This document shows positions 11,992 through 44,779 of a DNA stretch of 64,000 nucleotides, one piece after another. Within the stretch, counting starts at the first letter, position 1; the number at the start of each line of letters is the position of its first letter. Position numbers and translations under genes: made by a program. A model generated the notes under the pieces. It was not told where the DNA came from, made no database searches, and worked only from the letters and a program-made list of their open reading frames with translations. Source of the DNA: a virus; the IMG/VR virus record IMGVR_UViG_3300025610_000001; one strand, 5' to 3'.

Positions 11992-12012
11992 AAATATACA
12001 GGAGAGATTACA

Positions 12013-12120
12013 ATGACACGCTGTAAATTACTTGACCAATGGTTTGATTCAAAGTCTAAAGAATTAGATAAGGAAGAAAATAAGCAGAAAAAAGATTTAA
12101 TTACTGGACAAAAGAAGTGA
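12013..12120 (+). CDS. Micro-protein, 35 aa (MTRCKLLDQWFDSKSKE...)
   Basis: Uses the duplicated initiation region. Its stop is embedded in the GTGATTTT SD of the next gene. Confidence 0.4.
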   Translation: MTRCKLLDQWFDSKSKELDKEENKQKKDLITGQKK

Positions 12121-12124
12121 TTTT

Positions 12125-19709: not shown

Positions 19710-20035
19710 TGTGGGAAGATATTCTTAAAAGAAAAAAATCTTACACTGGTAAGTTAAAAGACCTTGTTAATGAAGTTTATACTGGTAAAATAGTGGGTGC
19801 TGATTTTAAAAAGGTAAAACAACTCTTAGCAGATGAAGACTTCGATATTAGATTTCACGTTGAGTTACAAGTAAAGCGTGGAGAATTTGTTCACTTTTTT
19901 ACATTTGCAGCGAGAACTTTTATGGATTTCTTGACAGGATTATCAACAACTATTGTAGGCATGAAGATACCATCTTTGGGTAGAGAATTCAATAAAAATA
20001 GAGATATTATCAGAATATATTCAGATGACGTTTAG
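19709..20035 (+). CDS. W-tag protein (MWEDILKR...), 108 aa
   Basis: Track ORF with TAATG overlap to terL. Confidence 0.75.
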   Translation: MWEDILKRKKSYTGKLKDLVNEVYTGKIVGADFKKVKQLLADEDFDIRFHVELQVKRGEFVHFFTFAARTFMDFLTGLSTTIVGMKIPSLGREFNKNRDIIRIYSDDV

Positions 20036-29075: not shown

Positions 29076-31589
29076 ATGCCTCTTCTCATTGAAAAGGATA
29101 AGGACTCTTCTGAAAAGATTATACGTCTTTTCGAGAAAACAAGAGTCGCTTATCTATCTGCTCGCACCGACCCCAAAGAATATGGGAATAGGTGGCGTAA
29201 AGCAATTGATGACATTAGAGAACTCTATGAAGAACTCAATGAATTTAGCAAGGAATTAAAACAATTCATACAAGAAGATGAATTAGAAAACAAAGAAGCA
29301 AAAGACCCAACAAGTAATATCGCTGAAAAGATTTACAACGGTATTAAAGAAATGCGTTTTGGTTCTGAATTAATTGAAGACCCTTTTGCTAAAAACTTCA
29401 AAGGCGATGTTCTTGAAGCATTACTTGAATCTCCAGAAACTATGATTAAATTTGTCCACTATGCTCTAAGGGCTGACAATAAATCCCTACCAAAAGAGAT
29501 TTGGAGCATTAAAGATATGCAACCCGACACGATAACTGAGGGTCTAACGGGACTTGACCTAGATGAAGACGATATTGCTCTCTACATTATCGAACAGTAT
29601 GGGGATGAAAAAGACTCAAAGAAGGTTGAAAGCAAAGTTAAATCAGCCTTAGAGATGTTAGAAACTTTATTCTTCTCCAAGTATAGTGAAGAAGAATTCG
29701 ATGAACTGAAAGACATTGAAGGTATTGAGAAGGCTGAAAAATCAGAAGACGAAAAGGCTGAATCAGACTTCCTTATTCCAAACAAACCTATGTATCGAAT
29801 CTTTGAGATTGACGATATGAAGGAATTAAAAGGTTTTAGTGGAGAATATATTATACAAGAAAAATACGATGGTATGAGAATACAGTTACATAAGATAGAT
29901 GATAACGTAAAGGTATTCTCATACAATGGTAACAATATTTCAGATAAGTGCCAAGAACAAATCAAAGAATTAAAGAAAAAGAAATACGGAGATTGCATTC
30001 TTGATGCAGAATTGATTCTATTTGATGGAGATGAAGCCCTACATCGGGCCGATACAATTGCACATATCTTTAAAGGTAAATATCCTGATGCAAAGGTAAG
30101 AGCGCACGTTTTTGATATTATGCGACACAACGAACAAAATCTTGTTGAAGAAGAATTAAAAGACAGAATCACTATTCTATTCAACAATTATGCATCACAT
30201 TCCACAGAATCAATAGAGTTCCCTTCAAAGAAAGATACTCGAACTGCTGATAATTTAAAAGATGTTGAAGAATATTCAAAAGAAATTATGGAGATGCCGA
30301 CATCAGAAGGAGTAGTAATTAAAGACTCTACATCAACATATTTTATAGGAACAAAAAAGAATCCTAAGTGGATTAAATGGAAGAAGTTTGTTGATTTAGA
30401 TTTAGTTGTTCTTGATAAGAAAACTACAAAATCCAATCTCAATTCTTATACTTTAGGCGCAGGGCCAGCAGAAGGAGAAGGTAAATTCTTTACTGAAATA
30501 GAAGGAAAAACCTACATGAATGTTGGAAAGGCTCTCAATACAAAAATAGAAGTAGACGTTGGAGATATTATTCGAGTTAAGGTTGATGAAGTCAAAAAGA
30601 ATGGAGATAGATATACTTTGTTTTCTGCGAAGGTTATTGAAGTTCCTGAAGTTGAATATCCAGATAAACTTGTAACATTAGAGATGCTTTCACAAGATAC
30701 TAAGAAGTCATTAAATTATGACGTAAAGGCATTAGAAAAAGGAATTAGAATCACAGACCACATACACGGTGAAGCAGATATTATTGTAAAATCAGATTTA
30801 GATGGTTTTACAATTTATGGTTTTGATGAAAGCAATCTAATGTCTAAGAATGCTATAATTGATATGGATATGTGGAAGTCAAAAGTCGAAGAGATTATGA
30901 AGACTAAGCAATCTAAATTGACTCAAATTGTCTTCAATTACCTAAAAAACATGGGTTCAAAAGAACCAAAAGAAATTCACAATTTCCTAACAAAGAAACA
31001 TAGTTCAGTTTATGAGGATATTCTTGAAGGAAAAATGTCAAGAGTCAAAGATTGGTTTGAAAATAGAGATGGCATTGGCTATGATACAAAAACCAAAAAA
31101 CTCTTTGCTGAAGAAGATAAAATTATCAAAGAACCTGAATTACTAAAAGCATATAAAACTCCAGAAAAATATAGAGAAGGGGAGTTTAAAGTATATCTTA
31201 GAAAAGATGATAACCTAAACATTGCCATGAAACTAGATGACGAAACAATCAACTGGTTTGTAAAATTAGAAAGTGATGATAATATATTTGATTTGTTTGG
31301 TAAAGCAGGTAAATATCCAGCAGAAGTAGCAAAGACTTCTTCAAGAGAAAAGGTAGTTGATTCTGGTTCTGTGAAATTAGGTGTCCAAAAAGAAGGCTAT
31401 CATGAATATTTCTTAAATGGTAATAAATTCCAAACTAAAATTCACTTTAGAGTTGTAGAGAGTAAAGGTGATAAAATGTGGATTGCTTGGACTGGCTACA
31501 AACAAGAACCTGCTGACGACGATGAGGACAAGGGATTGTGGAATATCTATGAAGATAGGTATAACTCCTTGACCATACCGACTGAATAA
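29076..31589 (+). CDS. ATP-dependent DNA ligase core with large N- and C-terminal extensions, 837 aa
   Basis: Motif I EKYDGMR (KxDG), motif III ILDAELILF, motif IV EGVVIKD, motif V KWIKWKK. Confidence 0.8.
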   Translation: MPLLIEKDKDSSEKIIRLFEKTRVAYLSARTDPKEYGNRWRKAIDDIRELYEELNEFSKELKQFIQEDELENKEAKDPTSNIAEKIYNGIKEMRFGSELIEDPFAKNFKGDVLEALLESPETMIKFVHYALRADNKSLPKEIWSIKDMQPDTITEGLTGLDLDEDDIALYIIEQYGDEKDSKKVESKVKSALEMLETLFFSKYSEEEFDELKDIEGIEKAEKSEDEKAESDFLIPNKPMYRIFEIDDMKELKGFSGEYIIQEKYDGMRIQLHKIDDNVKVFSYNGNNISDKCQEQIKELKKKKYGDCILDAELILFDGDEALHRADTIAHIFKGKYPDAKVRAHVFDIMRHNEQNLVEEELKDRITILFNNYASHSTESIEFPSKKDTRTADNLKDVEEYSKEIMEMPTSEGVVIKDSTSTYFIGTKKNPKWIKWKKFVDLDLVVLDKKTTKSNLNSYTLGAGPAEGEGKFFTEIEGKTYMNVGKALNTKIEVDVGDIIRVKVDEVKKNGDRYTLFSAKVIEVPEVEYPDKLVTLEMLSQDTKKSLNYDVKALEKGIRITDHIHGEADIIVKSDLDGFTIYGFDESNLMSKNAIIDMDMWKSKVEEIMKTKQSKLTQIVFNYLKNMGSKEPKEIHNFLTKKHSSVYEDILEGKMSRVKDWFENRDGIGYDTKTKKLFAEEDKIIKEPELLKAYKTPEKYREGEFKVYLRKDDNLNIAMKLDDETINWFVKLESDDNIFDLFGKAGKYPAEVAKTSSREKVVDSGSVKLGVQKEGYHEYFLNGNKFQTKIHFRVVESKGDKMWIAWTGYKQEPADDDEDKGLWNIYEDRYNSLTIPTE

Positions 31590-31626: not shown

Positions 31627-32835
31627 TTGAACGACATGAGCATCAGTATTAGTGCATCCAGAAATGATGATTTTCTCATCATTAAAAGCGATGAACTGAT
31701 GATTGGTGGTTATGCTTCAATTGAAATTGTTGATAAGCAAAATGACTTAATCACGCTTAAAGCATTAAACGAAGCAGTTCAAAAATTTATGTCAAAGTCT
31801 GAATATAGAAATGTAATGACAAATCATTCAAATGTTCAAGTCGGAGAGGTAGTAGATTCATATAGAGATAAAACAGGGAGATTGTGGAAAACTGAAGTTG
31901 ATGACGTTGGTTTCTTTGTTGTAATTAAATTAAGAGATGATATAGAAAAAGCCAAAGAAGTTGGTAGAAACATTCGCAAAGGGTCATTAAGGTCTTTTAG
32001 CATTGGTGGACAGGCATTAAAAAAGTCTAAGAAAAACCACGACGAATTAGGAGAATATAACGAAATTAGTAAGTTAGAACTCCATGAAGTAACAATATGC
32101 GAAAAAGGAATTAATCCCGAAGCGAGATTCGATATTCTAAAACAGGATAAAGGAAGTGAAAAAATGTCTGATAAACTAGAAAAAGCATTGGAAGAATTAG
32201 ACGCATTGATGGAAGAAGTCAATACGTTGAGAAAGGAAGAAGAAGAAGAAGGAAAGGAAGCATTAGAAATGGCTGACCCTAAAACGGAAGAAATGGAAAT
32301 GTCTGATGAAAGTGAAGAAGAAATGGAATCTTCTGAATATGCTGATTTTGAAAGCGCAGATAAGGCATACCTCCGCACATTAGATGGTGCTGGTAATCAA
32401 ATCGGTGAACCTGCTGATAGAATCGTCATTAACAATGGTCGCCCGACATCTTCGGATATGCCTGTTGTTAAGGCATTCGGAAACAATGAGTTAGAAACTC
32501 TTGATTTGTCCGTTGGCAACATTGAGAAGGCTTACGAGGCTTTCCGACAAGAACAACTTGAAAAGTTGGCTTATGATAACTTGCAAAAGTCTTTTGAAGA
32601 CCGATTTGCAAGAGAAAAGAATGTAAGAGAGAATACTCTCGCAAAGTCGCAATATGACGCACAAAGCGAAATTGCTTCTCTAAAGGATGAATTTACAGCA
32701 TTGAGAAAGTCCTTAACTGCTGAAAAGGAAACAATCCTAAAGGCTCAAGAAGAGGCTAAGGTTGAACTCCCAAGTATTGATGATTTGGCCGAAATGGATT
32801 GGTCAGACATTCACAAGATGGTAGGAGGTTATTAA
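31627..32835 (+). CDS. HK97-type prohead protease fused to an acidic coiled-coil scaffold-like C-terminal half
   Basis: N-terminal GGYAS...DKQND...H...SFSIGG...HEVTICEKGINPEA pattern. E-rich C-terminal half ending MDWSDIHKMVGGY. The start is TTG 31627 or ATG 31636. Confidence 0.75.
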   Translation: MNDMSISISASRNDDFLIIKSDELMIGGYASIEIVDKQNDLITLKALNEAVQKFMSKSEYRNVMTNHSNVQVGEVVDSYRDKTGRLWKTEVDDVGFFVVIKLRDDIEKAKEVGRNIRKGSLRSFSIGGQALKKSKKNHDELGEYNEISKLELHEVTICEKGINPEARFDILKQDKGSEKMSDKLEKALEELDALMEEVNTLRKEEEEEGKEALEMADPKTEEMEMSDESEEEMESSEYADFESADKAYLRTLDGAGNQIGEPADRIVINNGRPTSSDMPVVKAFGNNELETLDLSVGNIEKAYEAFRQEQLEKLAYDNLQKSFEDRFAREKNVRENTLAKSQYDAQSEIASLKDEFTALRKSLTAEKETILKAQEEAKVELPSIDDLAEMDWSDIHKMVGGY

Positions 32836-32836
32836 G

Positions 32837-34171
32837 ATGACTGGATATATTAACACAATTGCAGATTTAGAAGCACAAACATACGGAACAGGCACTTTTG
32901 CTGGCAATTCTTTGCTTAAGCAAGCAGGAATGGTTGGTGGCATTCATACAGGACATGATGGTGGCCCATCTTTTAGCGGTTCAGCCGTTTCAGATGTTTC
33001 AGCCCTATACAACGTCGTTTACGGACAAAAAGTTTGGTCTATGTTGAATAGAGAAGTAAATGCTCTTTCAATGATTTCAAAGCGACCATACTCTTCTAGC
33101 GGTTGGAGAGTTCTAAAGTCAAGACCTGCGGGTGGAAGCGGTAATCTATTTACTGTTGATACTTCGGGAACTGCTTCTTTAGGAGAATTAGGTTCTGATG
33201 ACCCAAGAGCAGATTTAATTGGTGGTGTTCCTGAAAACGCTGCATTGTCTACATCAGCAGATGGTTTAGGCCCAATTGCACCAACATATGCTCAATTGAA
33301 CATGAGTCCAAAGGTTATTGCTCATCAATTCGATTTCAGCGAATTGGCTATGGAAATGGCTCAGATTGACGATGGAATTGGCGATATTAGAGCGCAAATG
33401 CGTGAAGATATGGGCAAGCACCACGCAGAAGTTCAAAACAAGATGTTAGTTATGCCTTTGGAACATTTCGGTGAATCTGCGGCTATGCCTAACATTACTA
33501 ACAACTATACCTCATTAAACAAGGTTATCTCTTCAAGAGCAGAATTGTTGGCTATTGATGGTGGAGTTATCGCTACTGATACTACTTCTGCTTCTAACGC
33601 ATTAGGACAGATTTACGGTAGTGAGAGATTTACTGCCGCATCTTTCCTAGATTCTGAAGTTGATTTTGGTTCGGGATATGCTTCTGGAAATGTTCGTTCT
33701 TTGACTCTAACTCGTCTTAATGACATGATTAGAAACCTAAGACTTGCAGGTGGTTCACCAAAGGTTATTTTAACTGGATATGATACCATTCAAGCACTTG
33801 CTGACCTATTGCAAAGCCAAGAAAGATTTATGGACAGAAAGGAGATTGTTCCTACTGTAAATGGTGTTCGTGGAACAAAGGGTCAAGAAGTTGGATTTAG
33901 AGTTGCAACATACTATGATATTCCATTGATTCCTGTTAAGGACATGGCTACAACGGGTAATGCTTCAACAAAGTTATCTGACCTATTATTCCTCGATACT
34001 GACCATCTATGGCTTTCTGTTATGAAGCCAACTCAATACTTTGAGGATGGTATTGCGAATGGAAACCCATTTGGTGTTGGAACTCTCGGAAACCGAGCAT
34101 TGTATCGAACAATTGGTGAAGTCGGATGTTCCTTCTTTAAGGGTCAAGGTAAGATTACTAACATTCAATGA
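32837..34171 (+). CDS. Major capsid protein
   Basis: 444 aa, directly after the protease-scaffold gene. Less A/T-biased codon usage, typical of a highly expressed gene. No motif-level proof. Confidence 0.7.
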   Translation: MTGYINTIADLEAQTYGTGTFAGNSLLKQAGMVGGIHTGHDGGPSFSGSAVSDVSALYNVVYGQKVWSMLNREVNALSMISKRPYSSSGWRVLKSRPAGGSGNLFTVDTSGTASLGELGSDDPRADLIGGVPENAALSTSADGLGPIAPTYAQLNMSPKVIAHQFDFSELAMEMAQIDDGIGDIRAQMREDMGKHHAEVQNKMLVMPLEHFGESAAMPNITNNYTSLNKVISSRAELLAIDGGVIATDTTSASNALGQIYGSERFTAASFLDSEVDFGSGYASGNVRSLTLTRLNDMIRNLRLAGGSPKVILTGYDTIQALADLLQSQERFMDRKEIVPTVNGVRGTKGQEVGFRVATYYDIPLIPVKDMATTGNASTKLSDLLFLDTDHLWLSVMKPTQYFEDGIANGNPFGVGTLGNRALYRTIGEVGCSFFKGQGKITNIQ

Positions 34172-35566: not shown

Positions 35567-35965
35567 ATGCCAGCATTAAACACAGATACTCGTTTAGTTA
35601 TGACTATTCTCTTTGTTGGAACAGTAAGCGGTGCTAATGTTTTCTTTTATGCAACTTATGGGACTACTTTCCCATATACGCCTTTAGCACATTCTGTTCT
35701 CTTTGGTTTAATTACTGTTGGAACAATCATGGTTATGAAAGCCCTCTTTGATATTTCACTTAACGATAAGATTGAATTATGGTTATTAGACCGTAAGATT
35801 AGTGCTTATTGGGCTAGAATGGCAAGAGATGAAGAACAAAGAAAGAAACTTCAAGATACTGCTAAATCATACAATCTTTCTCCCTATGCGGGATTAGCAC
35901 CTATGGCACAGTCTTATGAATCAGAAAATACAGTTTCTTCTGATTTCTTGACTACGCTACAATAG
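35567..35965 (+). CDS. Membrane protein, 132 aa, two N-terminal hydrophobic helices
   Basis: Hydrophobic segments LVMTILFVGTVSGANVFFYA and VLFGLITVGTIMVMKALF. Confidence 0.65.
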   Translation: MPALNTDTRLVMTILFVGTVSGANVFFYATYGTTFPYTPLAHSVLFGLITVGTIMVMKALFDISLNDKIELWLLDRKISAYWARMARDEEQRKKLQDTAKSYNLSPYAGLAPMAQSYESENTVSSDFLTTLQ

Positions 35966-35973
35966 GTGAGTAA

Positions 35974-36192
35974 ATGGTTGTATCGGATTGGTTAGGTTTT
36001 AGCGATTCTGATTATGCGTATAATCAGCAAAGAGCGCATTCAGCAGACATTCTCTTTCTAAAAATGAGAATGTGGTTTTGGGCTAGTTGCGCTACGCTTT
36101 CAGCATTTTTAATTGGAAACATCATGGGTGTTTTTGATATTAATGTAATGGGTTGGTTATTTGATAACCTTCTCGGTGGGTGGGGTCATTAA
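35974..36192 (+). CDS. Small membrane protein, 72 aa
   Basis: Hydrophobic segment WFWASCATLSAFLIGNIMGVF. Confidence 0.6.
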   Translation: MVVSDWLGFSDSDYAYNQQRAHSADILFLKMRMWFWASCATLSAFLIGNIMGVFDINVMGWLFDNLLGGWGH

Positions 36193-36854
36193 TGTCATTA
36201 ATGACAGGCTTTGCTATTTTAGTCGGAGAAGCAATATTAGGTTTTTACAAAAAAGTTCATGCAATTAATTTTGGAGTATATGGTGCAACAATGGTTGGTA
36301 AAACTACATTACATCATCAATTAAGAACAAGAGGTGAAGTTCCGACAATACAGAAAAGAACTGTTGGTCGTCATCGAGCAACTAGAAAATCTATTAAATT
36401 AGATGGAGAAATGAATACTCTTAGAACATCAGATATTGGCGGAGAAGCAATGTATTGGAAAGAATGGGCTAAAGATATGCAAATGAGAAAAGTAAAATAT
36501 GTTATATTTATGATTGACCATAGGCATTTAGATAAAGGCGGTAATTTAGACCATCAGGTAGCATGGAAATTCTTAGTTGATACAATTACAAACGATAGGT
36601 GGCCTAGCGGTAAAAAGAAGAAAGAAGCAGATTATCCAATGGCAGTTGCTATTTGGGCAAACAAATATGATGTTTGGGGAGATAAATACAAGAGCGATGC
36701 ACCGATTGACAAGCATCCAATTTTTGAACCTTTTAAATATGGTATGCAAAAATTAAATAATGTAGGAATACCGACGCATAAATATATTGTATCGGCAAAA
36801 TCCCAACCCGAAGCAGTTTATCAAGGAATATTTACGATGATTAAGGATTATTGA
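36192..36854 (+). CDS. Ras-superfamily small GTPase (Arf-like G3) with a hydrophobic N-terminus
   Basis: G1 GATMVGKTT, G3 DIGGE, G4 NKYD, G5 SAK. N-terminus MSLMTGFAILVGEAILGF. TAATG overlap with the upstream gene. The track start is GTG 36180. Confidence 0.7.
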   Translation: MSLMTGFAILVGEAILGFYKKVHAINFGVYGATMVGKTTLHHQLRTRGEVPTIQKRTVGRHRATRKSIKLDGEMNTLRTSDIGGEAMYWKEWAKDMQMRKVKYVIFMIDHRHLDKGGNLDHQVAWKFLVDTITNDRWPSGKKKKEADYPMAVAIWANKYDVWGDKYKSDAPIDKHPIFEPFKYGMQKLNNVGIPTHKYIVSAKSQPEAVYQGIFTMIKDY

Positions 36855-36859
36855 TTATT

Positions 36860-37417
36860 ATGTGGTTCGATATTCTTAAAAGTTTAAGACGTTATGCTCT
36901 TTCAGATAGTGATAAAATAAATAAAAAAGAAAGGCCAACAGGAACAGGAAGTAAGCCTAGAGGATTATGGTATTCTTTTTCACTAGGACAGGGATGGCTA
37001 AAATTTATGCAAGAAGAAAGACATTATAATTTGCAAGGAAAGATGGATTCATATAAGTATATTTTAGAACTTGATACGTCTAGTGTTAATATTTTAAAAA
37101 TAAATACTAAAAAGAAATTAGATTCCTTTATTAAAATCTACAAAATAAATCCTTCAGATGATATGGATGCTAAATTTTGGTGGCCTTTGGTTGCTCTAAG
37201 GTATGATGGAATAGAATTTTCTAACGGTATGTATGCTAAACATGATACTATAAGAAGAAATTGGGATATGGATTCTGGTTGTATTTGGAACACCACTTCA
37301 TTAAAAATAAAAAAAGTTAAACCATTAGAAGAAAGACAAAAAACTTATGTAAACCCTAGTATGAGAGAATACTATAAAATGAGAGAAGAAGAGATGAAAC
37401 GAAGGGAGAAAGATTAG
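36860..37417 (+). CDS. W-tag protein (MWFDILKS...), 185 aa
   Basis: Trimmed from TTG 36851. This is the only W-tag gene outside the 5-23 kb region. Confidence 0.7.
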   Translation: MWFDILKSLRRYALSDSDKINKKERPTGTGSKPRGLWYSFSLGQGWLKFMQEERHYNLQGKMDSYKYILELDTSSVNILKINTKKKLDSFIKIYKINPSDDMDAKFWWPLVALRYDGIEFSNGMYAKHDTIRRNWDMDSGCIWNTTSLKIKKVKPLEERQKTYVNPSMREYYKMREEEMKRREKD

Positions 37418-38080
37418 ATGTATCAAAACAACATTATACAACAAGTAGGAACAAATGGCGCACCTGTCGGCAATACTGTTAATCAGAATGTGCCGAATAG
37501 ATTTTTGCCTAAATTACAACAGGCAAGAGCAAGTGGGCCAATCGAAGAATATAAGTTTAATAACTTTAAACCAAAGAAGAAACTAAAAGAATTAAGAAAG
37601 GTATTACTACCAGAAAAGAAGAAGTTTCTCTTTGTAAAATTCGGATATAAATTTAATCTCAAAGAAAGGTGTGTAGTTTGTGGAATGCATCATATTTGGG
37701 AAGCAGGAGATTATTTACGACCTCCTATTCCATTAGATAGAGTAGAGCGTGGAAGGCCATTAAGAGGAACTTATTGTCCTAAACATGCCGCACACCATAA
37801 ACAATTTGAAATGCTACAACAAGAAATTATTGCAGATGAACATGGATTAGATTTCAAAAGATTTATTCCTACTCCAAAAATGCCTAAAATGATGAAAGCA
37901 GGGCCAATTTATAATCTCACTAATGAGGATATTGTTGCCCTCTCATCAGTCGGATATGTTATAAAGCCCCCAGTCATATCACAAGATGAGTCGAAAGAGA
38001 GCGAAGTATTACGCTTAACATCGGAGTTAAAAACGATTAGTCAAAGACTTGATGTATTACTAAAAATTAAGGAGGAATAA
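37418..38080 (+). CDS. Hypothetical protein with a CVVCGMHH...CPKH metal-binding motif, 220 aa
   Basis: Track ORF. Confidence 0.7.
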   Translation: MYQNNIIQQVGTNGAPVGNTVNQNVPNRFLPKLQQARASGPIEEYKFNNFKPKKKLKELRKVLLPEKKKFLFVKFGYKFNLKERCVVCGMHHIWEAGDYLRPPIPLDRVERGRPLRGTYCPKHAAHHKQFEMLQQEIIADEHGLDFKRFIPTPKMPKMMKAGPIYNLTNEDIVALSSVGYVIKPPVISQDESKESEVLRLTSELKTISQRLDVLLKIKEE

Positions 38081-38082
38081 AC

Positions 38083-38739
38083 ATGGGAATGTTCGGAACA
38101 AGTAATGGAACTGTATTAAATGCAGTTCAACAACAATCAGATTCAAACTTTAAAACAGTTAATAACTTACTATCATTACAAGAAAATCACGTTGAAGAGT
38201 TCTTTCAGTATCATGGAGAACTTTTCTTAAAGTCATTGGAAAAGTTGATGGAAGACGTTATTGAAAGAGTAATGAGTCAAATGCTAGGAAAGTTAGCATT
38301 TGTTCAAGACTCCACAACAAACAGAATGAAAATTGATTCAGATGCTATGCGTGAGTTTGAGCGCATTACACAAGAGAATATTGATTTAGATTTAAAGAAT
38401 CTCTTAGATACCGCAATTAATACAGAAATTATTAATCAACGAAAACTTGCAAAACAGCAGTACCTAGAATCTCAAGGGTTCTCGGCAGGTGCAGGGCAAG
38501 TTTCAGCAGGTATGGCATTAGCAAACGTAACAGGAAATACTCAACAATTTAACCAAATGCAGGGTGCTATGAACAATGGTTCAGGTTATCCCGTTCCTCC
38601 AAATGGAACGGATGGATATGGTCGCCCATATTGGATTGACCCACAAACAGGACAAATGAGTTATGAGCCACCAACTTCAGGATTGGGCTTAGGTTCAGCA
38701 ATTCAAAAAGGTGCGGCATGGGCAAAATGGTTAATGTGA
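38083..38739 (+). CDS. Hypothetical protein, 218 aa, with a Q/N/G-rich C-terminal region
   Basis: Track ORF. Confidence 0.7.
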   Translation: MGMFGTSNGTVLNAVQQQSDSNFKTVNNLLSLQENHVEEFFQYHGELFLKSLEKLMEDVIERVMSQMLGKLAFVQDSTTNRMKIDSDAMREFERITQENIDLDLKNLLDTAINTEIINQRKLAKQQYLESQGFSAGAGQVSAGMALANVTGNTQQFNQMQGAMNNGSGYPVPPNGTDGYGRPYWIDPQTGQMSYEPPTSGLGLGSAIQKGAAWAKWLM

Positions 38740-38750
38740 GCGTGAATTAA

Positions 38751-40307
38751 ATGGTTAGTTTCTTATGGCGGGAATATCCCACTATTACCAAAGATGAAAC
38801 TAAGGTTAAAATTCAAAATGCTTTTTATGATGTATTAAAAGGAGTTTCTAAAGTTGATAATTTCACTTCAGAAATTGATGCTTCTTTAAATAGCATTAAA
38901 GAAGGAACAAAAGAAGAACTTATAAATTTTATTCAGAATGCAATAGATGAAAAGATGGAAGATACTACTATTGAGAAGGCTTTTCATGATGCTGGAATTT
39001 TAGAAATTTATAAAGGGTTAAGCAAAGGTTCTGAGAAGTCGCAAGATATGGGATATATTAAAAGAATTATGAAAAACTTTGATAAGTCTTTGAAAGATTT
39101 AGAGAGTAGTTCTTCTTTGCAAAGACAGATTGAATTAAGAAGTAAAGATGTTAAACCTGATTCTATTGATTTGATGAGTTCTAATTTTGGAGAAGATAGA
39201 CTTAAAGATGTTCTTCTTCAGTTTTCAACAGAAAAAGGTGAAAGCGGTCAAGGGCTTCCATTTGTATCTACTAAAAATATGAAAACTGCTGAGGATTTAA
39301 TTCGATTTCAAAGACTTGACCCCAACAAAGAAGGAGAAGAAATGATTAGACTTAAAAATGCTATTATTTTTAAGACAAAAAAAGATTTCATTGATTGGCA
39401 AGAACTCACAAAGAAAAATCTATTATTAGAAGAAGGAGTTTTTTCGTCTTCCAGAAAGTCAAATAGAAAGGACAAAAAAGAAATAGATAATTTAATTTTA
39501 AAAGAATTAGATATTGAAAGCAACGTATATAAAAATCGTAAAGAATTAGAAGAAAAATTTCAAAGCGGGAACAAGGAGGAAAAAAACAGGGCATTGACGG
39601 AATTAGTATTTAACGTAATCCGAGAAAATGAATTAATCATTAGAGAATACTTAACTCCTATATTAAACAACCCTTATTTGATTTCAGAAATTATTTTGAA
39701 AATTACTCCTAGTCTTAAAAAACCGACATTAAGCGTTCTAGAACTAACCAATACTGATATGACAATTATTTTTAAATATTTAACGTCGGGTAAACTAACA
39801 AATTCAGACTTAAAAGATGTTACAAAGGAAAAATTTATTCAACCTTTATTTGAAAGTGTTGATGGAAAAATGCAACCGATTAGAGAATTACCAGAAAATA
39901 AAAGAGAAGAATTCTTAGAAGAAAATTTTGGAAAGAATGAATTTGTTGATAGGGTCTTAGCAAAAGTAGAAAGTAGTCCACCTAAAAACATAGATAGAAT
40001 GAAAGATGATTTTAGAATAATTATAAATGAATTAAAAAAGGAAGGAAAACCAGTTAAATTACAAGTATATGGAAAAGGATTCTCAATAGAAGAACCCGTA
40101 AAAGCAGGATTTAAGCGTTCAGAAGAAAAAGGAATCAAAGAAAGCGACATTCTTTCTAACTTAACCGTAGATATTACAATAGAATTTAAACATGAAAAAA
40201 TATTACGAATCGAACCTACAACATTAAAATCAGAAGATTCAAATAAAGTAGAAGCGTTTATGGATAAACTAGCAGATATAGTTGATGAACTAGAAGACTT
40301 AAGGTGA
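38751..40307 (+). CDS. Large K/E-rich orphan protein, 518 aa
   Basis: Track ORF. Confidence 0.8.
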   Translation: MVSFLWREYPTITKDETKVKIQNAFYDVLKGVSKVDNFTSEIDASLNSIKEGTKEELINFIQNAIDEKMEDTTIEKAFHDAGILEIYKGLSKGSEKSQDMGYIKRIMKNFDKSLKDLESSSSLQRQIELRSKDVKPDSIDLMSSNFGEDRLKDVLLQFSTEKGESGQGLPFVSTKNMKTAEDLIRFQRLDPNKEGEEMIRLKNAIIFKTKKDFIDWQELTKKNLLLEEGVFSSSRKSNRKDKKEIDNLILKELDIESNVYKNRKELEEKFQSGNKEEKNRALTELVFNVIRENELIIREYLTPILNNPYLISEIILKITPSLKKPTLSVLELTNTDMTIIFKYLTSGKLTNSDLKDVTKEKFIQPLFESVDGKMQPIRELPENKREEFLEENFGKNEFVDRVLAKVESSPPKNIDRMKDDFRIIINELKKEGKPVKLQVYGKGFSIEEPVKAGFKRSEEKGIKESDILSNLTVDITIEFKHEKILRIEPTTLKSEDSNKVEAFMDKLADIVDELEDLR

Positions 40308-40312
40308 TACAA

Positions 40313-41617
40313 ATGGGAACAGTTCGCTCGCCAAGTGATTATACCACAATCAATGTAGATTATTCTACTGGAAGTGGTTTTTATACAGACAAGGGAGCAG
40401 TTTCTGATTTGCTTCAAGTTTCAGCATTTTCCGCCTCCACAAACCCCACGCAAGCGCAGGTCGGTTCTATCATTAAGAGGGTCGAGGGAATCATAGATGA
40501 CAAAGTTAAGAGGTCGTTTCGCCCGATTATTACTCAACATGAATATCATAACTTTGAATTCATTAGGCATCCCGCTAGAGCATACTATGGTGGCTATGTT
40601 GGATATGTTCAACTTTCTATGATGAAAGTAAGAAAGATTGTTTCTCTTCAGGTATGGCAGGGAAGTAGTTATATTGAATTGGCATCAGCACAAGCAAAAA
40701 TCGAACTACTTGAGAATTATAGAGACATTTATTCAATAGTATTGCAATTGCCAAATAGCGGAACAGAATTTGAAATGCTTTCAGAAGATACAGGTTCTCT
40801 ACAAAAAACAGAATTTAATACATCTTTTGGAGAAAAGACAACTGCTAATGAATTAGTTGCTTTAATCAATGAACAGTTCCCATCGCCAACTGCACAATTT
40901 ACAGGTGCAACAGAAGCAAAAGAATTACATGTTAGTAATAGAAATATTTCAGATTTCTTTTACGCACAAAAGAATACAGAAAATTCAAAGGAAGTATTTA
41001 TTTCTTCACTATTGGCTGGTGAAGATGGTTCTGATTGCACAATTAAAGTAAAGACTCAACAAGCAATAACTCATACAAATGGAAGTTTTAATCTTGTTGT
41101 TGCTGATTCATCTAAATTAGTTGTGGGTATGGAGATTGAAGATAATCATATTCCAAGTGGAACTACAATTACTGCTATTGTAGATTCAACTAATGTTACT
41201 ATGTCTGCATCAGCAACAAATACTGGTTCAAGCACAGGAACATTTATCGCAACAAATACTTCTATTCCAACAATTTGCACAGTAACTCAATTTACAGATA
41301 AACAAGATGTAAGAAGATTAGGTTCTTTTTGGAATATCGGAGAAGAAGGTAAAATTTTCTTCTTGCAGGATTATCCATATCATACTCAGAATTCTATTAT
41401 TGTTTCGTATATTGCAGGAGATAATAGAGTACCTGCGGCTATTCACGAAGCAGCCACAAAATTAGTTGCGGCAGAAATACTGCGACATGATGACCAAACT
41501 ATCCTTATTGCTGATACTGGGGGCAATATATCAACCAAGGAAAAGTATGATATACTGCGAAAGGAAGGCATGGATATACTCAAAGGCAAGGGAGATTTAG
41601 TTTATTTCTTAGGGTGA
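40313..41617 (+). CDS. Head-tail adaptor-like protein with an inserted domain, 434 aa
   Basis: Trimmed from GTG 40304, which lies in the SD. The N-terminus resembles adaptor/connector proteins only in style. Carries the VGMxI..IPxxTTI...TMS module also present in the 2190-aa protein. Confidence 0.35.
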   Translation: MGTVRSPSDYTTINVDYSTGSGFYTDKGAVSDLLQVSAFSASTNPTQAQVGSIIKRVEGIIDDKVKRSFRPIITQHEYHNFEFIRHPARAYYGGYVGYVQLSMMKVRKIVSLQVWQGSSYIELASAQAKIELLENYRDIYSIVLQLPNSGTEFEMLSEDTGSLQKTEFNTSFGEKTTANELVALINEQFPSPTAQFTGATEAKELHVSNRNISDFFYAQKNTENSKEVFISSLLAGEDGSDCTIKVKTQQAITHTNGSFNLVVADSSKLVVGMEIEDNHIPSGTTITAIVDSTNVTMSASATNTGSSTGTFIATNTSIPTICTVTQFTDKQDVRRLGSFWNIGEEGKIFFLQDYPYHTQNSIIVSYIAGDNRVPAAIHEAATKLVAAEILRHDDQTILIADTGGNISTKEKYDILRKEGMDILKGKGDLVYFLG

Positions 41618-43135: not shown

Positions 43136-44779
43136 ATGGCAGTAAATACAGACATATTTTTAGGCAGTGGCGCAACTTTGACTATGATTCCAGAATTGGA
43201 TTTAAAAGTCATATTAGATACAACAAGCACAAGCACAAGTTTAGTTGCTGATGCTCTTTGGTCAGATAATGTAAGAATGGTAGAAAATCTCTACGTTGGT
43301 TGCGTTATTGATTTATTTGATGCATCTGTTTCACCAACAGAAGCCCATTCTACTCACGTTATTACTGCTAATGATGCTACATCTTTTACAATTTCTCCAG
43401 CCCATAATTTAGGAACTTTACAAGATGCAACAGATTTCATTGTTATTAGAGGATATGGCGCACCTGCTCCAACAACCCTAACAGGTTCTATTGCACGATT
43501 AAGTGCAGATAACTGGTTAGGTATTTTAGAAAGTGCTACTTTCCCAAATCTTGAAGTGGAAATGAAACAATTTAATATTTCATTAGGTGGAACAAGAAAC
43601 TTTTCTCATCAATTTAAAGGAATTGAAACTGCAAGCGGGGCAAGTTTAAATATCATTAATAATCAAGGAACATGGCTTTATTATGCTTTAGGTAAATGTA
43701 CACAAATTAACGCAACCTTTACTGGAAGTTCTTCATTAGACCCAGCAACTCCACCATATATTGCCCATGCAAACAATGTTCATTATCTAGATATTGGAGA
43801 AAATGCAGCCGCAAAAGCATTTAGTGATAACATTACAGGCTTTACATCAACAGGGCCAATCTTTTATAGAACTGCAAAGGATTCTACTTTTATGATTCCT
43901 CCAGTAGCAAATCAAGATACTGCAACACATATGGCACTATTGACATTACCATCATACAATGCAAGTGGTGTTCTAACAAACCCAATTAAATATACATTTG
44001 GAGAAGCAAATGGTGAAGAATTGCCTTCTTTTGGATTAGAACAAAACATGAGTAAATTAGAAACATCAAATCCACACAGAACAGGAGATACTACATTAGC
44101 AACAGAATCTCATAATTTTGTTCGTATTGCAAGAGGTAATCGAGTAAATACTTTAACAATGACAGCAAATGAGAATGAAGAAGTTAAGATGACTCTTGAT
44201 TTAAATACAAGAACTGTTCACAAACTTAAGACTGATGAAGCATATGAAGGTCGTGCGGGTGTTGATGACAATGCTGATTTGTTTAACTTTGGAAGTGGTT
44301 CAAATACATTAACAGCGACAGGAGAAGAATCTCTTGAACCTTTCTTCTTTTCAAGTGGTGCTTTCACTATCTTCGGACAACAATTCCTTAAGATTACAAA
44401 TATGACATTAACTATCAATAATAATCTACAAGACAAGAGATTCGTAGGAATTGGCAACAAATCCGTTAAGTCTGCTATTCCTGCACAAAGAACTTATGAA
44501 ATTTCGTTTACTGCTATGGTTACAGATAATCAACTATTTGAAGAACTTCTTGACCAAACAGAAGAAGGCACAAGCAATCTTATTACTCTACAATTTGATA
44601 AGAATGCTCCTGATGGAACCCTCAATGAACAAATTCTATTAAAGTTCCAAGATTACTTCTTAAGTTCAGCAAACATTACAATTCCAGATGATAAAGGGCC
44701 AATTACTATCGAAGGAACAGTAATGCCAAGAAATCTAAACACTTGTGAAGTTAGAACTCACTGGGTTTTACAGGGGTGA
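43136..44779 (+). CDS. Major tail protein candidate, 547 aa
   Basis: Large gene directly upstream of the chaperone/tape-measure pair. Followed by a hairpin. No separate tube gene was seen. Confidence 0.5.
   Translation: MAVNTDIFLGSGATLTMIPELDLKVILDTTSTSTSLVADALWSDNVRMVENLYVGCVIDLFDASVSPTEAHSTHVITANDATSFTISPAHNLGTLQDATDFIVIRGYGAPAPTTLTGSIARLSADNWLGILESATFPNLEVEMKQFNISLGGTRNFSHQFKGIETASGASLNIINNQGTWLYYALGKCTQINATFTGSSSLDPATPPYIAHANNVHYLDIGENAAAKAFSDNITGFTSTGPIFYRTAKDSTFMIPPVANQDTATHMALLTLPSYNASGVLTNPIKYTFGEANGEELPSFGLEQNMSKLETSNPHRTGDTTLATESHNFVRIARGNRVNTLTMTANENEEVKMTLDLNTRTVHKLKTDEAYEGRAGVDDNADLFNFGSGSNTLTATGEESLEPFFFSSGAFTIFGQQFLKITNMTLTINNNLQDKRFVGIGNKSVKSAIPAQRTYEISFTAMVTDNQLFEELLDQTEEGTSNLITLQFDKNAPDGTLNEQILLKFQDYFLSSANITIPDDKGPITIEGTVMPRNLNTCEVRTHWVLQG

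What the first reader, a model, noticed from the sequence alone, without database searches (positions are those of the whole stretch)
35567..36854. Arf-like small GTPase with a hydrophobic N-terminus, coupled to two membrane proteins inside the structural block
Gene 36192..36854 has a complete small-GTPase motif set (GATMVGKTT, DIGGE, NKYD, SAK). The DxGG-type G3 followed by an aromatic/Trp segment recalls Arf/Sar and G-alpha proteins. It has a hydrophobic N-terminal helix (MSLMTGFAILVGEAILGF).

It is translationally coupled by TAATG to a 72-aa membrane protein, which follows a 132-aa protein with two transmembrane helices. A 9-bp tandem duplication TCATTAATG/TCATTAATG (36186-36203) sits at the junction.

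Ras-superfamily GTPases are rare in prokaryotic viruses, and this virus shows no recognisable holin or endolysin. A membrane-anchored GTPase trio is therefore a candidate for membrane remodelling, egress or entry-related functions. The functional link between the three genes is inferred from adjacency only.
Basis: partly seen in the sequence, partly recalled or inferred. Interest (0 to 1): 0.75.

Follow-up and report, generated by a model that had tools for sequence, protein, structure and literature searches.

The report
Membrane-anchored Arf-like GTPase in magroviruses
A virus of marine group II archaea carries a real, well-conserved Arf-like small GTPase with a hydrophobic N-terminal anchor, inside a conserved membrane-associated gene module of unknown function that is a testable candidate for how archaeal tailed viruses leave their cells.

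Summary
Genes 35567-35965 (two transmembrane helices), 35974-36192 (one weaker hydrophobic helix) and 36192-36854 (220 aa) exist. The last has a full G1-G5 motif set and a hydrophobic N-terminal helix.

The window is a magrovirus, a tailed virus of Poseidoniales. With a deep alignment the GTPase folds confidently (pLDDT 90.6) as a Ras-superfamily G domain. The family profile matches Asgard ArfR, Arl3, G-alpha, Arf1 and Sar1 best. Its architecture (hydrophobic N-terminal helix plus Arf-like G domain) resembles SR-beta. It fails the curated Pfam cut-offs and has no close cellular relative.

The family occurs in 385 protein clusters and 284 IMG/VR contigs. Its conservation (median 77.5% identity) is second only to the capsid protein among the genes compared.

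The "trio" is too narrow. In four distant viral lineages the GTPase is followed by the same two soluble proteins (37418-38080 and 38083-38739). Upstream membrane proteins recur in most lineages. Tight coupling to the 72-aa gene is common (84% of loci) but not obligatory. The 9-bp duplication is not significant.

The function is inferred only. I favour a GTP-switched membrane module acting late in infection, most likely in egress. I found no mention of this GTPase in the magrovirus papers I could search.

The parts
35567..35965 (+). orf132: 132-aa membrane protein. It has two hydrophobic helices (residues 10-28 and 43-61) followed by a conserved juxtamembrane stretch and a charged, variable C-terminal tail.
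   Evidence: ORF and hydropathy. Homologs in 83 loci, median 62% identity, with the TM segments the best conserved part. Topological counterparts (137-148 aa, 2 TM) lie upstream of distant GTPase relatives in L093 and L094. No Pfam, PHROG or PADLOC hit.
35974..36192 (+). orf72: 72-aa protein with a conserved soluble N-terminus and one weak hydrophobic helix (about residues 35-63). Its stop overlaps the GTPase start (TAATG).
   Evidence: Homologs in 84 loci, median 67% identity. Small one-TM proteins in the same relative position in L006, L093 and L094, with a similar 'F-x-[IF]-S-L-x-x-W/F-L' tail motif (read by eye).
36192..36854 (+). 220-aa small GTPase. It consists of an N-terminal hydrophobic helix (residues 2-22) and a Ras-superfamily G domain of Arf/Sar/G-alpha type.
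   Evidence: Motifs. AF2 model pLDDT 90.6, pTM 0.86. Foldseek PDB matches are all small GTPases, with the best TM-score for Arf6-GTP (0.80). The family profile matches ArfR, Arl3 and G-alpha best. 385 homolog clusters. 284 IMG/VR contigs.
36195..36257 (+). N-terminal hydrophobic helix (residues 2-22, SLMTGFAILVGEAILGFYKKV). Gly/Ala small residues and a buried Glu13 are invariant, and a Lys-Lys pair follows. Probable membrane anchor.
   Evidence: KD19 is 1.52-1.85 in 64 distinct homologs. S2, G6, F7, A8, E13, A14 and K20 are invariant. Hydrophobic moment about 0.2. Helix 2-22 in the model, with lower pLDDT (64-74).
36282..36305 (+). G1 / P-loop, GATMVGKT (residues 31-38).
   Evidence: G31, G36 and K37 are invariant even among relatives at 20-35% identity.
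36432..36446 (+). G3 / switch II start, DIGGE (residues 81-85). Glu occupies the place of the Arf/G-alpha catalytic Gln. Trp92 follows at D+11.
   Evidence: D81 and G84 are invariant. Position 85 is E in magroviruses and Q/H/D/A in relatives. Trp92 aligns with the Trp of ArfR and G-alpha-q.
36660..36671 (+). G4, NKYD (residues 157-160), directly after strand beta5. Guanine specificity motif.
36792..36800 (+). G5, SAK (residues 201-203), directly after strand beta6.
36186..36203 (+). 9-bp perfect tandem duplication (TCATTAATG x2) across the orf72 stop and the GTPase start. Judged incidental.
36860..37417 (+). Variable 185-aa gene starting MWFDILK. It is an insert, not a constant part of the module, and is present in only 9 of 92 loci.
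37418..38080 (+). orf220: 220-aa soluble partner. It has a basic stretch (KKKLKELRKVLLPEKKK) and conserved motifs C-V-V-x-G and R-G-T-Y-C-P-K-H. It is the gene that follows the GTPase in all four lineages examined.
   Evidence: Homologs in 78 loci. Alignment with the L006, L093 and L094 counterparts has invariant P31, L63, C85, V87, G89, G112 and Y119. HMM hit to L006 at E 1.4e-4. Same motifs in L097. 378 clusters, all unnamed. No PDB or Pfam match.
38083..38739 (+). orf218: 218-aa partner. It has a helical N-terminal half, a Q/G/P-rich region, a WW-like hairpin motif (GRPYWIDPQTGQMSYEPP) and an invariant C-terminal tail (GLGLGSAIQKGAAWAKWLM).
   Evidence: Median 76% identity. The C-terminal 70 residues are nearly invariant. 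Positional and compositional counterparts in L006, L093, L094 and L097. Weak Pfam hits to Phasin_2 (E 8.6e-4) and WW (E 0.028), both below cut-off.

Best explanation
What it is. The 220-aa gene encodes a functional guanine-nucleotide switch of the Arf/Sar/SR-beta/G-alpha branch of the Ras superfamily. A conserved, uniformly hydrophobic N-terminal helix holds it at the host cytoplasmic membrane. This is SR-beta-like architecture, with the Lys-Lys pair and the G domain on the cytoplasmic side.

The module. It belongs to a conserved, virus-specific gene module with five parts:
- a two-TM protein (35567-35965)
- a one-TM protein (35974-36192)
- the GTPase (36192-36854)
- a conserved soluble protein (37418-38080)
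- a Q/G/P-rich protein with an amphipathic-looking tail (38083-38739)

Proposed mechanism (inferred). The module is expressed with the late morphogenetic genes. The GTP-bound anchor recruits or activates the two soluble partners at the membrane patch marked by the small TM proteins. This remodels or breaches the membrane, most likely for release of progeny. GTP hydrolysis would time or reset the process.

Shown versus inferred.
- Shown: fold, motif set, hydrophobic helix, conservation, synteny, recurrence of the module in distant lineages.
- Inferred: GTP binding and hydrolysis, membrane insertion, physical interaction of the parts, late expression, and the role in egress.
For: Identity:
- Complete G1-G5 motifs at canonical positions.
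- The only residues invariant across relatives down to 20% identity are nucleotide-binding ones: G31, G36, K37, D81, G84 and D109 in the 50-sequence alignment, with N157 and K158 also invariant in the 25-sequence alignment and at least 90% conserved in the larger one.
- AF2 model pLDDT 90.6.
- 1466 Foldseek PDB matches at E<=1e-3; the 50 best listed are all small GTPases or their complexes, with the best TM-score for Arf6-GTP at 0.80.
- The family profile matches Asgard ArfR (E 2e-13), Arl3, G-alpha, Arl1, Arf1 and Sar1 over the full length, while Ras and Rab match only the N-terminal half. The switch-II Trp aligns.
- Pfam Arf is the strongest family among the relatives (E 1.9e-15) and SRPRB hits 6 of 25.

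Membrane link:
- The N-terminal helix is hydrophobic in all 64 distinct homologs. Small residues and Glu13 are invariant, which suggests specific helix-helix packing.
- Relatives carry clear TM segments at the same place.
- TM proteins lie directly upstream in magroviruses, L006, L009, L011 and L093/L094.

Module:
- GTPase followed by an orf220-like and then an orf218-like gene is found in magroviruses, L006, L093/L094 and L097.
- orf220 has about as many clusters (378) as the GTPase (385).

Importance:
- Median identity is 77.5%, against 85% for the capsid protein and 44-67% for neighbouring small genes.
- The pattern scan of one genome per GTDB species, which reaches close relatives only, found one hit, a probably mis-binned 12-kb contig.

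Context:
- The module sits where the nearest cultured relative, HVTV-1, has only one small TM protein, so it is an accessory elaboration and not a universal head or tail part.
- A review states that the players of archaeal tailed-virus egress are 'completely uncharacterized' (PMC10791045).
- An Arf-like GTPase, ArvA, drives vesicle budding in Euryarchaeota (PMC10927574).
Against: - There is no experimental or expression data. Magroviruses are uncultured.
- The window protein itself is below every curated Pfam/NCBIfam cut-off: MMR_HSR1 17.7 bits against 21.9, SRPRB 13.9 against 25, small_GTP 25.5 against 42.5.
- Glu replaces the catalytic Gln, so hydrolysis kinetics are unknown.
- The N-terminal segment is short and only moderately hydrophobic (KD 1.58). 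It could be an in-plane or buried helix and not a full span.
- Position between head and tail genes is equally compatible with a role in assembly.
- No lytic enzyme is adjacent.
- In 14 of 85 loci other genes separate the 72-aa gene from the GTPase.
- In L097 the upstream TM pair is absent.
- Homology of the upstream TM proteins and of orf218 between lineages rests on position, topology and motifs read by eye. HMMs did not detect it.
- orf220 and orf218 show no similarity to ArvB or ArvC.
Confidence: 0.4

Rival explanations
1. Membrane-bound assembly factor. The anchored GTPase and the small TM proteins form a membrane platform on which head assembly starts or is checked, comparable to the membrane-bound initiation of T4 proheads through gp20/gp40 (my own knowledge). 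GTP hydrolysis would release the particle. The proteins are not in the mature virion.
For: The module lies inside the morphogenetic block between capsid/head-completion genes and tail genes. Its conservation is close to that of the capsid protein. In L011 a distant relative also lies next to protease-like and capsid-like genes. HVTV-1 has a small TM protein at the same place.
Against: In L093/L094 and L097 the module sits among glycosyltransferase, recombinase and anti-defence genes with no head genes within 8-9 kb. HVTV-1 and other tailed archaeal viruses assemble heads without such a GTPase. No similarity to any known scaffold, chaperone or portal partner.
Confidence: 0.2
2. Host take-over or exclusion device. 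A membrane-anchored switch that manipulates a host membrane process for the benefit of the infected cell state. Candidates are vesicle formation by the host ArvA system, cell division, transport, or blocking superinfecting DNA. It would not act in release.
For: Small GTPases act as recruiters in many pathways. Membrane-protein morons with exclusion function do occur inside phage morphogenetic regions (HK97 gp15, my own knowledge). The GTPase is flanked on both sides by hot-spots for variable cargo genes. The L097 relative sits near Tad2-like and Acb5 anti-defence genes.
Against: Exclusion and anti-defence genes are usually fast-evolving and patchy. This gene is near-universal in the group and 77.5% identical at the median. 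No PADLOC match. The multi-gene module is conserved across lineages that are otherwise very different.
Confidence: 0.2
3. Packaged ejection proteins. The TM proteins and the GTPase are carried in the capsid and inserted into the next host's membrane to help genome delivery, like the internal or ejection proteins of T7 and P22 (my own knowledge).
For: Location in the head-proximal part of the structural block. Hydrophobic segments. Neighbouring variable genes share an N-terminal leader that could be a capsid-targeting signal.
Against: The GTPase itself lacks the MWxxILK leader. The virus already has a tape-measure-like protein with five hydrophobic segments for channel formation. A GTP-dependent switch would have no nucleotide supply during ejection from outside. 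I know of no precedent for a packaged small GTPase.
Confidence: 0.08
4. Degenerate or non-catalytic G domain used only as a structural or nucleotide-locked scaffold (pseudo-GTPase).
For: Glu replaces the catalytic Gln in magroviruses, and this position varies (E/Q/H/D/A/F) across relatives.
Against: All nucleotide-binding motifs, including NKxD and the P-loop Lys, are invariant or nearly so over deep divergence. Sar1 (His) and other GTPases work with non-Gln residues at this position (my own knowledge).
Confidence: 0.07

Closest known systems
Arf family GTPases, including Asgard ArfR (PDB 8oun/8oum), Arl3, Arf1/Arf6 and Sar1
   Same: Best profile-to-sequence matches over the whole G domain. 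DxGG G3 with the switch-II Trp at D+11. Acidic residue after beta4 (D109). A helix directly N-terminal to beta1. Highest structural TM-score to Arf6-GTP.
   Different: The N-terminal helix is uniformly hydrophobic, not amphipathic. Glu replaces the catalytic Gln. G5 is SAK, as in Ras and Rab. Loops after alpha3 (GKKKK) and after G4 are longer. The window protein does not reach the Pfam Arf threshold. Encoded by a virus of Thermoplasmatota-type archaea and not by Asgard archaea or eukaryotes.
SR-beta (signal recognition particle receptor beta subunit)
   Same: Architecture: an N-terminal hydrophobic membrane anchor followed immediately by an Arf-like G domain. Sub-threshold Pfam SRPRB hits for the window protein and 6 of 25 relatives. 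Some relatives have the DxPG form of G3 seen in SR-beta (the SR-beta motif is from my own knowledge). One relative is named SR-beta by JGI.
   Different: No SR-alpha/SRX partner nearby. Scores are far below the family cut-off. Archaea have no SR-beta (my own knowledge). The context is viral and morphogenetic.
ArvA-ArvB-ArvC vesiculation system of Euryarchaeota (PMC10927574)
   Same: An Arf-like small GTPase with an N-terminal membrane-interacting helix in an operon with two small conserved partner proteins. It acts on the cytoplasmic membrane of euryarchaea that lack ESCRT.
   Different: The partners here have no DUF2073 or DUF2072 signature. The helix here is hydrophobic, not amphipathic. Extra TM proteins are present. 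Sequence relationship to ArvA was not tested, because no ArvA sequence was at hand.
Ras/Rab GTPases of giant eukaryotic viruses (for example the mimivirus Rab, PDB 5xc5)
   Same: Virus-encoded Ras-superfamily GTPases. They are the only viral structural matches in BFVD, and 5xc5 is among the PDB matches.
   Different: Those are recent captures from eukaryotic hosts with ordinary Rab features and lipid-anchor tails. This family has no close cellular relative and belongs to a prokaryotic tailed virus.
Phage holin-based lysis cassettes
   Same: Small late-expressed membrane proteins. orf132 has the class-II-like layout of two TM helices plus a charged C-terminal tail.
   Different: No endolysin or spanin is adjacent. 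Known holins do not work with a GTPase. There is no sequence similarity. The hosts lack murein (my own knowledge).

Membership tests
Ras-superfamily small GTPase (TRAFAC class P-loop GTPase) | G1 GxxxxGK[ST], G2 Thr, G3 DxxG, G4 NKxD and G5 SAx motifs in order | tested here: met
   GATMVGKT, T57, DIGG, NKYD and SAK are present. All are invariant in 27 magrovirus homologs, and the core residues remain invariant at 20-35% identity.
Ras-superfamily small GTPase (TRAFAC class P-loop GTPase) | Six-stranded mixed beta-sheet / five-helix G-domain fold | tested here: met
   AF2 pLDDT 90.6 with secondary-structure order b1-a1-b2-b3-a2-b4-a3-b5-a4-b6-a5. Foldseek gave 1466 PDB matches at E<=1e-3; the 50 best listed are all small GTPases or their complexes.
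Ras-superfamily small GTPase (TRAFAC class P-loop GTPase) | Binds and hydrolyses GTP | not testable with these tools
   Needs biochemistry.
Ras-superfamily small GTPase (TRAFAC class P-loop GTPase) | Reaches curated family thresholds (Pfam Ras/Arf/Roc, NCBIfam small_GTP) | tested here: not met
   All hits of the window protein are below cut-off: MMR_HSR1 17.7 bits against 21.9, Ras 14.2 against 21.6, small_GTP 25.5 against 42.5. This shows it is a very divergent member.
Arf family (Arf/Arl/Sar1/ArfR, with SR-beta) | N-terminal amphipathic helix that is released on GTP binding (PMC preprint 10.1101/2024.02.28.582541) | tested here: not met
   A helix is present at the right place (residues 2-22), but it is uniformly hydrophobic: mean hydrophobicity 0.69, moment 0.20. 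This fits an anchor better than a toggling amphipathic helix.
Arf family (Arf/Arl/Sar1/ArfR, with SR-beta) | Switch-II signature DxGGQ...W | tested here: inconclusive
   DIGGE with W92 at D+11 aligns with ArfR and G-alpha. The catalytic Gln is Glu here, while it is Gln in P0121 and several distant relatives.
Arf family (Arf/Arl/Sar1/ArfR, with SR-beta) | Interswitch toggle (two-residue register shift between the GDP and GTP forms) | not testable with these tools
   Needs structures in both nucleotide states.
Arf family (Arf/Arl/Sar1/ArfR, with SR-beta) | Closest sequence relatives are Arf-family proteins / placement inside the Arf clade | tested here: inconclusive
   The family profile ranks ArfR, Arl3, Arl1 and Arf1 first, 9-14 bits above Rab and Ras. 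Pfam Arf is the best family among relatives. Foldseek E-values do not separate Rab from Arf. No phylogeny was made.
SR-beta | N-terminal transmembrane anchor plus Arf-like G domain | tested here: met
   Architecture only.
SR-beta | Pfam SRPRB above threshold, and an SR-alpha SRX partner | tested here: not met
   SRPRB 13.9 bits against 25. No SRX-like neighbour.
ArvABC vesiculation system | ArvB (DUF2073) directly downstream and ArvC (DUF2072 Zn-ribbon) within two genes (PMC10927574) | tested here: not met
   No Pfam hit to these families for 36851-37417, 37418-38080 or 38083-38739 at E<=1.
ArvABC vesiculation system | GTPase orthologous to ArvA (HVO_3014) | not tested
Holin-endolysin lysis cassette | Small TM protein with a charged C-terminus next to a cell-wall hydrolase | tested here: not met
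   orf132 has the topology, but no hydrolase is found in the neighbourhood.

The most novel reading that the evidence does not exclude
The five-gene module is a self-contained, virus-encoded, GTP-switched membrane-remodelling machine that carries out the so far unidentified egress step of archaeal tailed viruses. Its parts are the two small TM proteins, the anchored Arf-like GTPase, the conserved RGTYCP-motif protein and the Q/G/P-rich tail-anchored protein. It would also be an ancient viral lineage of Arf/SR-beta-type membrane switches outside Asgard archaea and eukaryotes.
Probability: 0.25. Interest if true: 0.85.

Novelty: new variant of a known kind. Interest (0 to 1): 0.62.

Why it matters
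Magroviruses are among the most abundant viruses of the surface ocean (PMC5434244, PMC11706807). How tailed archaeal viruses get out of their hosts is an open question. [quoted passage not shown]

This module gives a concrete gene set to test in a surrogate archaeon. It is near-universal in the group, strongly conserved and membrane-anchored, and it includes a GTP switch with fixed partners.

It also adds a virus-specific, deeply divergent branch to the Arf/Sar/SR-beta type of membrane GTPases. These were recently found in Asgard archaea (ArfR) and, as ArvA, shown to drive vesicle budding in Euryarchaeota. That is relevant to the debate on the prokaryotic roots of eukaryotic membrane trafficking.

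Small GTPases of this kind are otherwise almost unknown in viruses of prokaryotes.

Tried and rejected
- Single-sequence searches were uninformative. PDB phmmer and tblastn against phage records found nothing, PHROGs matched only two neighbouring genes to families of unknown function plus the capsid protein, and Pfam gave only sub-threshold hits.
- The first AF2 run, with only close homologs, gave a poor model (pLDDT 65.7). Its Foldseek matches had TM about 0.4 and rmsd 13-15 A, and I discarded it.
- The word-indexed search with the distant-relative profile mostly returned two-domain Der GTPases, which I treated as noise.
- HMMs of the magrovirus orf132, orf72 and orf218 families did not detect the positional counterparts in distant loci. 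Only orf220 gave a weak hit, so those equivalences rest on topology and motifs.
- I rejected a classical zinc-finger reading of orf220. Only C85 and C120 are conserved outside magroviruses.
- The WW-domain reading of orf218 stays weak: Pfam E 0.028 and no PDB profile hit.
- No PADLOC match for any module gene.
- No PDB match for orf220.
- The 9-bp tandem duplication as a meaningful signal was rejected.
- The GTG start at 36180 was rejected in favour of the ATG at 36192, because homologs begin MS[LIV][ML][TA]GFA.
- A first literature search with min_terms=1 was wasted.
- Supplementary tables of the magrovirus papers are not held, so an earlier mention of the GTPase there cannot be excluded. Zhou et al. 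2023 (Environ Microbiol) could not be read.
Full report
**1. What is in the window**

The three ORFs named in the finding are present on the + strand:
- 35567-35965, 132 aa
- 35974-36192, 72 aa
- 36192-36854, 220 aa from the ATG. A GTG at 36180 would add four residues, but homologs start MS[LIV][ML][TA]GFA, so the ATG is the start.

The stop of the 72-aa gene overlaps the GTPase start (TAATG). An SD-like GGTGGGTGGGG lies just upstream inside the 72-aa gene. AGGTGA motifs precede the other two genes.

Hydropathy:
- The 132-aa protein has two hydrophobic segments, residues 10-28 and 43-61.
- The 72-aa protein has one weak segment.
- The first 19 residues of the GTPase have a Kyte-Doolittle mean of 1.58 and a low helical moment (about 0.2).

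The 9-bp tandem repeat at 36186-36203 is real but unremarkable. The window holds five such repeats. Markov simulations give 0.8 on average, and 42% of them have at least one. Only the five closest relatives keep it.

**2. What genome this is**

The window carries the following on the + strand:
- large terminase, 18279-19709
- portal, 23228-24865
- an ATP-dependent ligase domain protein, 29076-31589
- S78 prohead protease, 31627-32835
- HK97-type capsid protein, 32837-34171
- tail tube protein, 43136-44779

GTPase homologs come from marine metagenomes. They include 'hypothetical protein QKV95_gp088' of Poseidoniales virus YSH_150918. This identifies the window as a magrovirus (order Magrovirales), a tailed virus of marine group II archaea. 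The capsid protein's nearest cultured relatives are the haloarchaeal Druskaviridae, HVTV-1 and HCTV-1, at 24-25% identity. This agrees with PMC8651126.

**3. The GTPase**

*Close relatives.* In 27 magrovirus homologs (68-87% identity) the following are invariant: the P-loop GxxxxGKTT, T57 in RTVG, D81-x-G-G-E85, IDHRHL after strand 4, NKxD and SAK.

*Distant relatives.* An exhaustive profile search of 1.84 billion representative proteins found only 80 matches at E<=1e-3.
- The full-length distant relatives are 199-280 aa and 20-35% identical.
- All have a hydrophobic N-terminal segment.
- Across them the invariant residues are essentially the nucleotide-binding ones, plus D109.

*Family assignment from sequence.*
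- The window protein alone is below all curated thresholds.
- The family profile matches PDB sequences strongly. The best is 8oun_A at E 2e-13, over profile positions 18-220. 8oun is one of the Asgard ArfR structures of preprint 10.1101/2024.02.28.582541.
- Arl3, mini-Gq and other G-alpha proteins, Arl1, Arf1 and Sar1 follow.
- Ras and Rab align only to the N-terminal half.
- In those alignments Trp92, eleven residues after D81, pairs with the switch-II Trp of ArfR and G-alpha.
- Among relatives, Pfam Arf is the strongest family (E 1.9e-15, 8 of 25) and SRPRB hits 6 of 25.

*Structure.*
- With a 50-sequence alignment AlphaFold2 gives pLDDT 90.6 and pTM 0.86.
- The model has the canonical G-domain order of strands and helices and an N-terminal helix at residues 2-22.
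- The 50 best-listed Foldseek PDB matches are all small GTPases or their complexes.
- Rab8a, Rab7 and Rab1 have the best E-values (about 2e-10).
- Arf6-GTP has the best TM-scores (0.79-0.80, rmsd 3.6-4.2 A).
- In the viral structure library the listed matches are giant eukaryotic viruses.

*Conclusion on identity.* This is a bona fide, very divergent small GTPase whose nearest affinities are with the Arf/Sar/SR-beta/G-alpha branch. Two departures from Arf proper stand out:
- The catalytic Gln is Glu in magroviruses, and Gln, His or other residues in relatives.
- The N-terminal helix is uniformly hydrophobic. S2, G6, F7, A8, E13, A14 and K20 are invariant in 64 distinct homologs.

The helix looks like an anchor that packs against other helices, not a toggling amphipathic helix. 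With Lys-Lys after the helix and only about five residues before strand 1, the G domain would sit directly on the cytoplasmic face. The closest architectural analogue is SR-beta.

**4. Distribution and conservation**

- The family comprises 385 clusters at 90% identity and is encoded on 284 IMG/VR contigs.
- A pattern scan of one genome per GTDB species, which reaches close relatives only, found one copy. It is on a 12-kb contig of a 'Maricaulis' MAG with magrovirus synteny, which is evidently a binning error.
- Median identity to the window protein is 77.5%. The comparison values are 85% for the capsid protein, 76% for orf218, 67% for orf72, 62% for orf132 and orf220, and 44-56% for the small head-proximal genes.

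**5. Gene neighbourhood**

In more than 80 magrovirus loci the order is:

orf100 - orf132 - orf72 - GTPase - [variable] - orf220 - orf218

The gap between the orf72 stop and the GTPase start is as follows:

| Gap (nt) | Loci |
|---|---|
| -1 | 11 |
| 0 | 18 |
| +1 | 23 |
| 2-10 | 19 |
| 291-845 | 14 |

In the last group one or two unrelated genes are inserted. Close apposition is therefore the rule (84%) but not a requirement. The gene after the GTPase in this window (36860-37417) is one of these variable inserts and is present in 9 of 92 loci.

**6. The module beyond magroviruses**

Distant GTPase relatives were traced to their contigs.

| Locus | GTPase | Gene order around the GTPase | Other context |
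|---|---|---|---|
| L006 | 34% identical | one-TM protein - GTPase - 316-aa protein - Q/G/P-rich 205-aa protein - small two-TM protein | |
| L093, L094 | 252-aa type | two-TM 137-148 aa - about 70-84 aa with one hydrophobic segment - acidic 258-291 aa - GTPase - 238-244 aa - Q/G/P-rich 230-244 aa - two-TM 94-107 aa | 130-kb and 39-kb elements with a faint TFIIB hit (L093 only), glycosyltransferases and a serine recombinase |
| L097 | 264-aa type | 463-aa protein - GTPase - 230 aa - G/Q/P/M-rich 174 aa | GC 56%; near Tad2-like, Acb5 and integrase genes |
| L011 | 280-aa type | overlaps a four-TM protein upstream | upstream of protease-like and capsid-like genes |

- The protein directly after the GTPase is homologous in all four lineages. 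It has a basic 'RKxLxP' stretch, C-[VC]-V-x-G and [RN]-[GS]-[ST]-Y-C-P. Residues P31, L63, C85, V87, G89, G112 and Y119 are invariant in the 12-sequence alignment (L097 judged by eye). The HMM E-value to L006 is 1.4e-4.
- This family has 378 clusters, all unnamed. It has no PDB or Pfam match.
- The next protein shares layout and composition across lineages, but HMMs did not link the versions.

It is the GTPase plus two downstream soluble proteins, usually preceded by small membrane proteins.

**7. Comparison with HVTV-1**

In HVTV-1 the capsid gene is followed by three small genes, a 110-aa protein with an N-terminal TM helix (gp124), and then gp125. gp125 is homologous to window ORF 40304-41617 (E 1e-8).

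The magrovirus stretch 35567-40307 thus occupies the position of a single small membrane protein in the cultured relative. The module is an elaboration at that site, not a universal head or tail part.

On the coding strand of the window, the only small proteins with hydrophobic helices are those of this module. The only other protein with strong hydrophobic segments is a 674-aa tape-measure-like protein.

**8. Literature**

- None of the magrovirus papers I could search mentions a GTPase: PMC5434244, PMC10160649, PMC11706807, PMC8651126 and the ICTV profile PMC10768690.
- GenBank calls the YSH_150918 copy hypothetical. JGI's automatic pipeline labels some copies 'GTPase SAR1 family protein' and one distant relative 'signal recognition particle receptor subunit beta'.
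- A 2024 review states that the players of the membrane-disrupting egress of archaeal tailed viruses are completely uncharacterised. It also points to the small GTPase OapA/ArvA as a possible handle for budding (PMC10791045).
- ArvA is an Arf-like GTPase with an N-terminal membrane-interacting helix. It is needed for vesicle formation in Haloferax volcanii and sits in an operon with ArvB (DUF2073, SepF-like) and ArvC (DUF2072 Zn-ribbon) (PMC10927574).
- The magrovirus partners show no such domains, so the likeness to ArvABC is organisational only.

**9. Interpretation**

*Well supported.* This is a guanine-nucleotide switch held at the membrane. It is essential enough to be nearly as conserved as the capsid protein, and it works with a fixed set of partners.

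*Inferred.* My preferred reading (confidence 0.4) is a late-acting, GTP-timed membrane-remodelling module, most likely for release of progeny. The reasons are:
- It is the only membrane-protein cluster in the late region.
- It replaces a lone small TM protein of the cultured relative.
- It travels between lineages independently of head genes.
- Arf-type GTPases are the known way for ESCRT-less euryarchaea to deform membranes.

*Rivals.*
- A membrane platform for head assembly (0.2).
- Host manipulation or superinfection exclusion (0.2).
- Packaged ejection proteins (0.08).
- A non-catalytic scaffold (0.07).

None can be excluded without experiments.

**10. Verdict**

It also needs correcting on three points: the helix is anchor-like, coupling is not obligatory, and the repeat is not meaningful.
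- The feature is a new, virus-specific variant of a known kind of protein, embedded in a previously undescribed conserved module.

Noticed in passing
window 9962-10243, 10582-11064, 19709-20035, 36860-37417; loci L015, L024, L034-L036, L044, L049, L074, L080 between the orf72 homolog and the GTPase: A set of otherwise unrelated small genes (62-191 aa) all begin with the same N-terminal peptide, MW[KFYQ]x[IV]LK. There are 4 in the window and 41 in the 83 magrovirus loci, falling into at least 18 unrelated body types. They sit at gene junctions on either side of the GTPase and after the terminase. In L035 two are in tandem with a duplicated junction sequence. They look like exchangeable cargo cassettes with a shared leader. 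The leader might be a capsid-targeting or processing signal like that of the T4 internal proteins, or the footprint of a recombination site.
   Followed up: partly
window 38083-38739 (residues about 165-218): The C-terminal 55 residues of orf218 are almost invariant across magroviruses. They contain a proline motif (GYP[IV]PP), a WW-domain-like hairpin (GRPYWIDPQTGQMSYEPP; Pfam WW E 0.028, no PDB profile hit) and a Trp/Lys-rich tail (GLGLGSAIQKGAAWAKWLM) that could lie on a membrane surface.
   Followed up: partly
window 29076-31589: An 837-aa protein with an ATP-dependent DNA ligase domain (residues 250-436, E 3e-29) lies inside the structural block, between the portal region and the prohead protease. 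It is conserved at that place in relatives (L002, L004). This is an unusual location and size for a ligase.
   Followed up: no
L095 (HVTV-1, NC_020158.1) 11253-11585 and 11585-12265; window 40304-41617: HVTV-1 gp124 is a 110-aa protein with a strong N-terminal TM helix, at the position where magroviruses carry the GTPase module. HVTV-1 gp125 is homologous to window ORF 40304-41617 (E 1e-8). gp124 may be worth testing as a lysis or membrane factor of a cultured archaeal tailed virus.
   Followed up: partly
L012 (NZMJ01000024.1, 'MAG: Maricaulis sp. isolate IN14'): A 12.2-kb contig of a bacterial MAG carries the magrovirus block orf100-orf132-orf72-GTPase-orf220-orf218 at 58-75% protein identity. 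It is almost certainly a mis-binned archaeal virus fragment.
   Followed up: partly
L097 5899-8344 (- strand): A distant GTPase relative (P0138, GC 56% contig) lies next to genes with Tad2-like and Acb5 Pfam hits (anti-Thoeris and anti-CBASS families) and an integrase. The GTPase triad therefore also occurs in a quite different, possibly temperate, virus.
   Followed up: no
L093 / L094 (130-kb and 39-kb metagenomic elements): Large elements with two glycosyltransferases and a serine recombinase (plus a faint TFIIB hit in L093) carry the full module, including an extra highly acidic 258-291-aa protein (long D/E runs) between the small TM proteins and the GTPase. The nature of these elements (virus type, host) is unknown.
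   Followed up: no
window 45517-47541 and 49388-55960: A 674-aa protein with five hydrophobic segments in its middle (tape-measure-like) and a 2190-aa ORF without any Pfam match lie downstream of the tail tube gene.
   Followed up: no
window 5750, 8752, 13860, 57909: Four further perfect 9+9-bp tandem duplications occur besides the one at the GTPase start. That makes five in the window, more than the 0.8 expected from a first-order Markov model, which suggests a general tendency to short slippage duplications in this genome.
   Followed up: no
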